This document shows, piece by piece, positions 63,705 through 64,000 of a DNA stretch of 64,000 bases; the first letter of the stretch is position 1, and each line of letters starts with the position of its first letter. Both the position numbers and the translations under genes were made by a program. The stretch is from NCBI RefSeq assembly GCF_024502345.1, contig NZ_JALDNN010000001.1, one strand, 5' to 3'. This DNA is from Escherichia coli (GTDB lineage Bacteria > Pseudomonadota > Gammaproteobacteria > Enterobacterales > Enterobacteriaceae). Under the pieces are notes generated by a model. It ran no database searches, was not told the DNA's origin, and was given only the letters and a program-made list of their open reading frames with translations.

Positions 63705-64000
63705 GGTCAGGCTGAATTAGCGGGTTTTAACATCAAACATTGGTTTGCAGATGGCGCGTTTCGCACCATTATTCGCAATAGCGCCTGGTTAGGCTCCAGT
63801 AATGTCGTGAGCGCCTTGCTGGGTCTGTTGGCGCTCTCGTGTGCCGGTAAAGGGATGACGCCCGCCATGTTTGGCGTACTGGTGATTGTACAATCGTACG
63901 CCAAGTCGATCAGCGATTTTATTAAGTTTCAGACATGGCAGCTGGTGGTTCAGTACGGAACACCAGCATTAACCAACAATAATCCGCAGCAATTCCGCAA
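63705..64000 (+). CDS. yghQ: Polysaccharide-transporter-like (MOP flippase family) inner membrane protein, 5' part only; runs off the window
   Basis: Open frame from 63705 to window end (…FADGAFRTIIRNSAWLGSSNVVSALLGLLALSCAGKGMTPAMFGVLVIV…); no in-frame ATG before 63852, so the start (possibly GTG 63807 or non-canonical) is unresolved. Confidence 0.5.

What the first reader, a model, noticed from the sequence alone, without database searches (positions are those of the whole stretch)
63705..63860. yghQ lacks an obvious canonical start codon
The yghQ reading frame opens right after a TAA at 63702-63704 and encodes a hydrophobic N-terminus, but the first in-frame ATG is at ~63852, downstream of conserved-looking residues. 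The only standard alternative is a GTG at 63807; the ATG at 63749 is out of frame and hits a stop after 13 codons. The true start may be non-canonical or the annotated N-terminus may be wrong.
Basis: seen in the sequence. Interest (0 to 1): 0.25.

Follow-up and report, generated by a model that had tools for sequence, protein, structure and literature searches.

The report
yghQ start codon lost by SNP
In this E. coli strain a single G-to-A change has turned the usual TTG start codon of the membrane-transporter gene yghQ into TTA, so the gene only appears to lack a start; this is an ordinary, rare start-loss variant with a small evolutionary twist.

Summary
In the yghQ frame, which opens after TAA 63702-63704, no ATG, GTG or TTG precedes the conserved N-terminus.

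The cause is simple. The codon at 63717-63719 is TTA here. It is TTG, the PGAP-annotated start with a TAAGG Shine-Dalgarno, in essentially all other E. coli: 4308 of 4618 complete genomes match the TTG 69-mer exactly, only one shares TTA, and 55 of 55 metagenome contigs have TTG.

Five codons downstream, ATC 63732 aligns exactly with the ATG start of every non-Escherichia orthologue found. So the genus Escherichia had already replaced the ancestral ATG by ATC and uses, or is annotated as using, the upstream TTG.

yghQ is under strong purifying selection in Escherichia (dN/dS 0.02-0.05). GTG 63807 and ATG 63855 lie inside transmembrane helix 1 or beyond it, so they are not credible native starts.

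Most likely this strain carries a start-loss allele. It is either a strong hypomorph, initiating weakly at AUC or UUA, or an incipient pseudogene.

A rival reading is that AUC is the true Escherichia start and TTA is neutral. It gains some support from a second lineage with TTA, an intact ORF and at least 24 contigs.

No new mechanism is involved, and interest is low.

The parts
62913..63671 (+). yghR (252 aa), the upstream gene. It is in the same reading frame as yghQ. Its stop is TAA 63669-63671.
   Evidence: ORF list; RefSeq annotation of identical loci.
63702..63706 (+). TAAGG Shine-Dalgarno-like element serving the codon at 63717. Its first three bases are the in-frame TAA that opens the yghQ frame.
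   Evidence: Anti-SD duplex of -6.5 kcal/mol, the strongest of all candidates. AAGG is invariant across Escherichia. Other genera have GATAACC at this position.
63717..63719 (+). TTA: the mutated TTG start codon of yghQ. The private G-to-A SNP is at 63719.
   Evidence: TTG in Combat11I9, XL1-Blue and 190693, where the PGAP start falls on this codon. 4308 of 4618 complete genomes match the TTG 69-mer exactly, and only 1 shares TTA. 55 of 55 metagenome contigs have TTG.
63720..63731 (+). Codons 2-5 (A-G-F-N), an Escherichia-specific and poorly constrained N-terminal extension.
   Evidence: Absent from orthologue proteins, which start MK[HNKRS]WF. Variants seen: G3V in 246 genomes, a synonymous GGG allele in 22, G3D in the P0004 lineage, N5S in the SCPM lineage.
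63732..63734 (+). ATC, the codon homologous to the ancestral ATG start. It is the only near-cognate start upstream of the conserved region, and PGAP calls it as the start in the other TTA lineage.
   Evidence: ATG at the aligned codon in all non-Escherichia loci, ATC in all Escherichia loci. The CEA224S CDS starts here. Weak SD, -4.0 kcal/mol.
63735..64000 (+). Conserved 5' part of the yghQ coding sequence (MOP/Polysacc_synt flippase, transmembrane helix 1 onwards). It runs off the end of the window.
   Evidence: Translation; invariant columns; Pfam PF01943 on residues 19-278.
63807..63869 (+). Downstream in-frame canonical codons: GTG 63807 (residue 31), TTG 63816 (34), TTG 63828 (38), ATG 63855 (47), ATG 63867 (51). 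Initiation here would give only N-terminally truncated products.
   Evidence: Codon list. SD energies are -3.6, -2.0, -3.1, -4.2 (zero spacing) and -5.1 kcal/mol. All lie inside or beyond transmembrane helix 1 and downstream of the invariant residues.
63751..63792 (+). Out-of-frame ATG with a 13-codon ORF ending in TAG. It is a by-product of the conserved Asp-Gly codons GAT GGC.
   Evidence: GATGG is conserved as coding sequence in all orthologues.

Best explanation
The window is the E. coli pitB-yghT-yghS-yghR-yghQ region. yghQ encodes a 449-aa inner-membrane protein of the Polysacc_synt / MOP-flippase type.

In other E. coli it is annotated as starting at a TTG, at window position 63717, served by a TAAGG Shine-Dalgarno at 63702-63706. 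In this strain a single G-to-A transition at 63719 has changed that TTG into TTA, so the normal initiation codon is gone. This step is shown.

The change sits on top of an older, genus-wide one. The ancestral ATG start, kept in every non-Escherichia orthologue found, is ATC in all Escherichia (63732). The in-frame TTG five codons upstream and an Escherichia-specific SD appear to have taken over. The pattern is shown; the takeover is inferred.

With TTG lost, full-length YghQ can only be initiated at the near-cognate AUC, which has a weak SD, or at UUA. In reporter assays these give roughly 0.02-3% and 0.01-1% of AUG respectively. Downstream GTG, TTG and ATG codons would give products lacking the invariant N-terminal residues and part or all of transmembrane helix 1.

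The expected result is a strongly reduced or null yghQ, that is, a recent start-loss allele or incipient pseudogene. The downstream gene overlaps the yghQ stop in other strains, so it may suffer reduced coupled translation. These consequences are inferred.
For: - The locus is identified and the start annotated at the codon equal to 63717 in three E. coli genomes. The alignment shows that the window differs from them at 63719 in the start region.
- Population data: 4308 of 4618 complete genomes match the TTG 69-mer exactly and only 1 matches the TTA 69-mer. 55 of 55 metagenome contigs have TTG plus ATC.
- The nearest haplotypes (Combat11I9, L26, 23CRST011) differ from the window by only 3 private SNPs in 1.9 kb, one of them 63719.
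- The SD upstream of 63717 is the strongest in the region, at -6.5 kcal/mol.
- TTG, AAGG and ATC are invariant across E. coli, the SCPM lineage, E. whittamii, Escherichia sp. E1V33 and an 88%-identity lineage, while codons 2-5 vary.
- Every non-Escherichia orthologue locus has ATG at the codon aligned with ATC 63732. Several have an in-frame stop within the five codons upstream.
- dN/dS is 0.02-0.05 within Escherichia, so the gene is normally expressed and constrained.
- Initiation efficiencies: AUG/GUG/UUG 10-100%; AUA/AUC/AUU/CUG 1-2% (0.02-3%); the other 57 codons 0.01-1% (bioRxiv 10.1101/063800).
- The SNP does not change the predicted mRNA structure.
Against: - No experimental start-site data exist for yghQ. 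Two TIS/N-terminomics resources were checked: one had no supplement held and the other had no hit. So it is not proven that TTG rather than ATC is the working start in wild-type E. coli.
- The same TTA allele persists in another lineage with a fully intact ORF: CEA224S, GCA_024302885.1, and at least 24 contigs carrying the identical 444-aa product. This shows that the change is tolerated and could be neutral.
- Only 98 codons of the gene lie in the window, so the integrity of the rest is unknown.
- A base-calling error at 63719 cannot be excluded from the sequence alone.
Confidence: 0.7

Rival explanations
1. AUC at 63732 is the genuine start of yghQ throughout Escherichia, a conserved non-canonical initiation codon kept at the ancestral start position. 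The upstream TTG would then be merely part of the 5' leader, and TTG-to-TTA would be a neutral leader polymorphism.
For: - ATC is exactly homologous to the ATG of all other genera and is invariant in Escherichia.
- The U-rich context upstream (GGGTTTTAAC) resembles the orthologues' GGCTGGTTTTTACC.
- Codons 2-5 evolve freely, with G3V in 246 genomes, plus G3D and N5S, as a leader would.
- The TTA allele persists with an intact ORF on at least 24 contigs of another lineage.
- PGAP calls ATC as the start in that lineage.
Against: - AUC initiates at only about 0.02-3% of AUG.
- Its SD is weak at -4.0 kcal/mol, whereas a -6.5 kcal/mol SD sits at the right distance from 63717.
- That SD (AAGG) is an Escherichia-specific novelty that coincides with the loss of ATG.
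- TTG is unchanged in all but one of 4618 genomes examined, in 55 of 55 metagenome contigs, and across five Escherichia lineages with dS up to about 0.55, while neighbouring codons vary.
Confidence: 0.2
2. The A at 63719 is a sequencing or assembly error in the source genome, and the strain really has TTG.
For: The base is private to the window relative to its three nearest haplotypes, which are otherwise 99.8% identical over 1.9 kb. It is absent from 4617 of 4618 complete genomes.
Against: - The identical change is documented in independent assemblies of another lineage, so it is a biologically occurring allele.
- The two other private SNPs nearby look ordinary: 63383 is synonymous in yghR and 62109 lies upstream of yghS.
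- The site is not in a homopolymer or repeat.
Confidence: 0.07
3. Translation in this strain starts at a downstream canonical codon, GTG 63807 or ATG 63867, giving a shorter but functional YghQ.
For: These are the first canonical in-frame codons. ATG 63867 has an AAGGG SD-like motif at about 10 nt, -5.1 kcal/mol.
Against: - Such products would lack residues 1-30 or 1-50. These include the invariant K7, F10, D12, G13, R16, R20 and N21, and half or all of transmembrane helix 1.
- The Pfam domain starts at residue 19.
- No orthologue starts there.
- The SD for GTG 63807 is weak, at -3.6 kcal/mol.
Confidence: 0.03

Closest known systems
E. coli yghQ (b2983; UniProt Q46841) as annotated in RefSeq: 'lipopolysaccharide biosynthesis protein', a putative MOP-superfamily flippase
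   Same: Same gene and same synteny (pitB-yghT-yghS-yghR-yghQ). The DNA is 99.8% identical to strain Combat11I9 over 63400-64000. The Pfam family PF01943 is the same.
   Different: The annotated TTG start codon is TTA here. In K-12 derivatives the gene is separately damaged: it is annotated as missing its C-terminus.
The yghQ allele of E. coli CEA224S and GCA_024302885.1 (WP_322407749.1, 444 aa, with ATC annotated as the start by PGAP)
   Same: The same TTG-to-TTA change and an identical 69-mer around it.
   Different: The haplotype differs. Flanking SNPs lie at 63536, 63544, 63824 and 63845, and identity over the last 7.6 kb is 98.15%. So the origin is probably independent, or a very short recombination tract.
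Native near-cognate start codons in E. coli: infC and pcnB with AUU (from general knowledge), and lacI with GTG tuning expression (PMC11445065)
   Same: A non-ATG codon at the start position lowers or tunes translation. The AUH class is decoded by the initiator tRNA at low efficiency.
   Different: There is no evidence here of regulation or selection for the weak codon. In the window, reliance on AUC follows from a rare SNP. AUC use in yghQ has not been tested experimentally.
Start-codon-loss mutations as loss-of-function alleles, for example mlaA start-codon elimination in chlorhexidine-adapted E. coli (PMC8170033)
   Same: A single-base change removes the initiation codon of an otherwise intact envelope-related gene.
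   Different: That case arose under laboratory selection and has a phenotype. Here the allele is natural and its effect is unmeasured.

Membership tests
Polysacc_synt / MOP-flippase superfamily (Pfam PF01943) | Whole-protein score above the Pfam gathering threshold | tested here: met
   42.4 bits against a cut-off of 28.2, on residues 19-278 and profile positions 2-247 of 274. The test used the full-length E. coli protein P0001, which is 99% identical to the query.
NCBIfam NF007773 (PRK10459, 'MOP flippase family protein', equivalog) | Score above the curated equivalog cut-off | tested here: not met
   32.7 bits against a cut-off of 273. YghQ is a distant relative, not a member of that equivalog.
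E. coli yghQ orthologue | Synteny downstream of yghT-yghS-yghR and near-identity to annotated yghQ | tested here: met
   One mismatch in 601 bases against Combat11I9.
Start-loss allele or incipient pseudogene | The codon used or annotated as the start in conspecifics is changed to a non-start codon, and the change is derived and rare | tested here: met
   TTG to TTA. One of 4618 complete genomes and 0 of 55 metagenome contigs share it.
Start-loss allele or incipient pseudogene | Further disabling lesions, or relaxed constraint, in the same gene | not testable with these tools
   Only 98 codons lie in the window. They are intact and carry no other change against the nearest haplotype. The rest of the gene is off the window. 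A lookup built on the nearest haplotype's sequence found no exact product on record.
Genes natively initiated at a near-cognate AUH codon (infC/pcnB type) | No ATG, GTG or TTG between the upstream in-frame stop and the conserved N-terminus | tested here: met
   Met in this window. Not met in the TTG-bearing E. coli genomes, which are nearly all of them.
Genes natively initiated at a near-cognate AUH codon (infC/pcnB type) | Near-cognate codon at the position homologous to the start of orthologues, and conserved within the clade | tested here: met
   ATC 63732 aligns with ATG in all non-Escherichia loci and is invariant in Escherichia.
Genes natively initiated at a near-cognate AUH codon (infC/pcnB type) | Ribosome-binding site appropriately placed for that codon | tested here: inconclusive
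   Only -4.0 kcal/mol of anti-SD pairing upstream of ATC, against -6.5 upstream of 63717. Orthologues with ATG show similar upstream sequence, but their SD strength was not scored.
Genes natively initiated at a near-cognate AUH codon (infC/pcnB type) | Experimentally mapped initiation (N-terminal peptide, toeprint or Ribo-RET peak) | not testable with these tools
   No yghQ entry in the resources checked. The literature search for yghQ found nothing on its start.

The most novel reading that the evidence does not exclude
Escherichia yghQ may be natively initiated at AUC, the mutated remnant of the ancestral ATG. It would have been kept for the lifetime of the genus as a deliberately weak, possibly IF3-sensitive, start for a membrane flippase, with the upstream TTG dispensable. 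That would explain why TTA alleles arise repeatedly and persist with intact reading frames. To my knowledge it would be a rare documented natural AUC start codon in E. coli.
Probability: 0.17. Interest if true: 0.4.

Novelty: new member of a known kind. Interest (0 to 1): 0.15.

Why it matters
The finding matters little for biology at large. Practically, a gene caller restricted to ATG, GTG and TTG would have no start available before GTG 63807 and would truncate this gene's N-terminus. PGAP resolves the same allele by calling an ATC start.

It is also a clean small example of start-codon turnover. An ancestral ATG was lost in a whole genus, an upstream TTG with a newly created Shine-Dalgarno was recruited, and that TTG has now been lost again in single strains. 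If AUC turned out to be the working start, yghQ would be a useful natural test case for near-cognate initiation.

yghQ itself is an uncharacterised envelope gene. It is already truncated in K-12, and its deletion doubles the chlorhexidine MIC (PMC8170033).

Tried and rejected
- **Read-through or fusion with yghR.** yghR and yghQ share a reading frame, but two TAA stops (63669 and 63702) separate them, and no orthologue is fused. Rejected.
- **Initiation at the out-of-frame ATG 63751 followed by a frameshift.** This would skip the invariant residues K7-G13. The ATG is a by-product of the conserved GAT GGC codons. Rejected.
- **A structured RNA or known leader element explaining the odd start.** Rfam gave no hit with E up to 1 in 63400-64000. 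The TTG/TTA SNP does not alter the predicted fold or accessibility. Rejected.
- **A separate promoter or terminator between yghR and yghQ.** Nothing was found in the 45-nt spacer. One terminator-like hairpin lies within the 3' end of yghR (63623-63641), but the region's counts do not exceed those in shuffled sequence.
- **Experimental start-site data.** The Ribo-RET preprint has no supplement held. The TRAINSPOTTER supplements do not mention yghQ, b2983 or Q46841. The 11 listed papers mentioning yghQ say nothing about its start codon.
- **Finding the source genome's own annotation.** I looked up an ATC-start product built on the nearest haplotype. It is not on record.
- **Shared ancestry of the window's TTA with CEA224S.** The flanking SNPs differ within about 100-175 bp on each side. 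The origin is probably independent.

Full report
**What is at the coordinates**

The last 2 kb of the window carries yghS (PGAP start 62168), yghR (62913-63671) and the first 98 codons of yghQ, which runs off the window at 64000. A megablast of 63400-64000 finds the region in 4622 of 5426 complete E. coli genomes. The best match is Combat11I9, with one mismatch in 601 bases. RefSeq names the gene 'lipopolysaccharide biosynthesis protein' or yghQ, downstream of pitB, yghT, yghS and yghR.

**Checking the observation**

- TAA is at 63702-63704 and the frame opens at 63705.
- The first in-frame ATG is at 63855, not 63852.
- GTG is at 63807.
- The out-of-frame ATG is at 63751, not 63749. It gives 13 codons and then TAG.
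- Two in-frame TTGs at 63816 and 63828 were overlooked, but both lie downstream of the GTG.

A run of 34 codons without ATG, GTG or TTG has a chance probability of about 0.04, given this gene's codon usage.

**The cause**

PGAP places the yghQ start at the codon corresponding to window 63717 in Combat11I9, XL1-Blue and strain 190693. The alignment shows TTG there in all three and TTA in the window. This G-to-A change at 63719 is the window's one mismatch against Combat11I9 over 63400-64000.

A 69-mer centred on the site gives these counts among 4618 complete genomes:

| Allele | Genomes with an exact match |
|---|---|
| TTG consensus | 4308 |
| GGT-to-GTT in codon 3 (G3V) | 246 |
| GGT-to-GGG in codon 3 (synonymous) | 22 |
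| TTA | 1 (CEA224S) |

A pattern scan of metagenome contigs, with both codons left free, returned 55 contigs, all TTG plus ATC. The three nearest haplotypes differ from the window at only three positions in 62090-64000. All three are private to the window, and 63719 is one of them.

**Which codon is the real start in E. coli, and what is left here**

The strongest anti-Shine-Dalgarno pairing in the region lies upstream of 63717: -6.5 kcal/mol, from UAAGG..AGG at 63702-63711. The others are weaker.

| Candidate | Anti-SD pairing (kcal/mol) |
|---|---|
| 63717 (TTA here, TTG elsewhere) | -6.5 |
| ATC 63732 | -4.0 |
| GTG 63807 | -3.6 |
| ATG 63867 | -5.1 |

Orthologue proteins outside Escherichia are 444-445 aa and begin MK[HNKRS]WF. 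At the DNA level, every non-Escherichia locus recovered from a scan of species-representative genomes has ATG at the codon aligned with window ATC 63732. Several have a stop within the five codons upstream. All Escherichia loci have ATC there, plus TTG five codons upstream.

An 88%-identity Escherichia-like lineage (L113) shows the same AAGG...TTG...ATC arrangement. Other genera have GATAACC where Escherichia has GATAAGG, so the SD appears to be an Escherichia novelty.

Codons 2-5 vary freely (G3V, G3D, N5S), whereas the rest of the protein is strongly constrained: dN/dS is 0.02-0.05 in all pairwise comparisons of six Escherichia sequences.

My reading is that the ancestral ATG decayed to ATC in the Escherichia ancestor and initiation moved to the in-frame TTG with a new SD. 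The pattern is shown. The functional takeover is inferred.

**Consequence in the window**

With TTG gone, no canonical start precedes the conserved region.
- Invariant residues K7, F10, D12, G13, R16, R20 and N21 lie upstream of GTG 63807 (residue 31) and ATG 63855 (residue 47).
- The Pfam PF01943 match starts at residue 19.
- The first hydrophobic helix spans about residues 24-43.

Those downstream codons could therefore only give truncated products.

Reporter measurements put AUG, GUG and UUG at 10-100% of AUG. AUA, AUC, AUU and CUG reach 1-2% (0.02-3% in other constructs). The remaining 57 codons, UUA among them, reach 0.01-1% (bioRxiv 10.1101/063800). The SNP does not change the predicted mRNA folding.

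The most likely outcome is a strong hypomorph or null allele. Any residual full-length protein would start at AUC 63732 or at UUA 63717.

**The main rival**

AUC could be the true start in all Escherichia, which would make TTA neutral. Three things favour this:
- the exact homology of ATC with the ancestral ATG;
- the unconstrained codons 2-5;
- the persistence of the TTA allele elsewhere.

On the last point, PGAP annotates ATC as the start in CEA224S. The identical 444-aa product is on record on at least 24 contigs (54 index blocks), including GCA_024302885.1, which I confirmed also reads TTA. That lineage is not the window's. Flanking SNPs differ within about 100-175 bp on each side, and identity over 7.6 kb is 98.15%. 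So the mutation has probably arisen at least twice.

Against the rival are the SD geometry, the near-absolute conservation of TTG while adjacent codons vary, and the poor efficiency of AUC. I give it about 0.2. A sequencing error gets about 0.07, and functional downstream initiation about 0.03.

**Comparison with known cases**

The protein meets the Pfam Polysacc_synt threshold. It does not meet the NCBIfam MOP-flippase equivalog NF007773.

The literature describes yghQ only as a putative MOP-superfamily transporter. It is mutated in chlorhexidine-adapted K-12, and its deletion doubles the MIC (PMC8170033). Nothing is reported on its start.

In K-12 derivatives the gene is annotated as a pseudogene missing its C-terminus, so loss of yghQ is tolerated in the laboratory.

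Start-codon polymorphism that tunes or abolishes expression is well known. Examples are the lacI GTG start (PMC11445065) and mlaA start loss (PMC8170033).

**Verdict**

The feature is real, but its explanation is ordinary: a rare, strain-private SNP in a TTG start codon. The one mildly interesting aspect is the layered history, ATG to ATC at genus level and then TTG to TTA in single strains. It leaves open whether AUC supports initiation. No experimental data were found to settle this.

Noticed in passing
window 62108-62110 (SNP at 62109): A second private SNP creates an ATG. The window has T at 62109, where all four comparison genomes have C (ACG). The ATG is in frame, 20 codons upstream of the PGAP GTG start of yghS at 62168, so the mechanical ORF becomes 257 aa instead of 237. 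The site lies in the spacer of the only promoter-like match upstream of yghS (62090-62118).
   Followed up: partly
L013, L021, L029, L032, L056 and other orthologue loci, about 40 nt upstream of the yghQ ATG; the homologous window region is 63705-63731: Many Enterobacterales carry a conserved run of roughly 9-nt units, TGGCTGNNN, up to three times (for example CTGGCTGAGTTGGCTGGTATGGCTGGTTTTTTACC ATG). A T-run of variable length (T4-T6) follows. It puts an upstream ATG or TTG in or out of frame with the main ATG. Escherichia seems to have lost one unit. The function is unknown, and the E. coli version has no Rfam match.
   Followed up: partly
window 61356-61527 (within yghT, minus strand): 18 of the 21 differences between the window and its nearest haplotype (Combat11I9) in 60900-64000 cluster in about 170 bp. 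This looks like a short recombination patch.
   Followed up: no
L002 (E. coli XL1-Blue, NZ_CP081007.1) 2818-3882: In this K-12 derivative yghQ is annotated as a pseudogene missing its C-terminus (355 codons). It is followed directly by mobB and mobA instead of the hypothetical, YtfJ-family and lptF-like genes seen in other strains. That indicates truncation plus rearrangement.
   Followed up: no
window 56424/56425 versus L005 9318-10596: Strain CEA224S has an IS621 (IS110-like) insertion between yghU and hybG. The window lacks it.
   Followed up: no
L045, L049, L050, L055, L057 (Dyella, Luteibacter, Rhodanobacter), L053 (Sphingomonas), L033 (record titled Martelella alba): Close YghQ homologues, 63-71% identical for most and 51% for Sphingomonas, occur in Xanthomonadales and in Alphaproteobacteria records, all starting MKHWF or MKRWF. 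This suggests horizontal transfer of the gene or cluster, or mislabelled or contaminated assemblies in some cases.
   Followed up: no
proteins P0003, P0005, P0006, P0009 (E. coli, 392-421 aa): Some E. coli carry yghQ alleles with internal in-frame deletions of 28-57 residues in the C-terminal half. Together with the K-12 truncation, and with about 800 of 5426 genomes lacking the locus, this hints that yghQ is dispensable in some lineages despite its low dN/dS.
   Followed up: no
window 62913-63704: yghR and yghQ lie in the same reading frame, separated by two TAA codons (63669-63671 and 63702-63704) that are 30 nt apart. The second TAA forms part of the yghQ Shine-Dalgarno TAAGG.
   Followed up: yes
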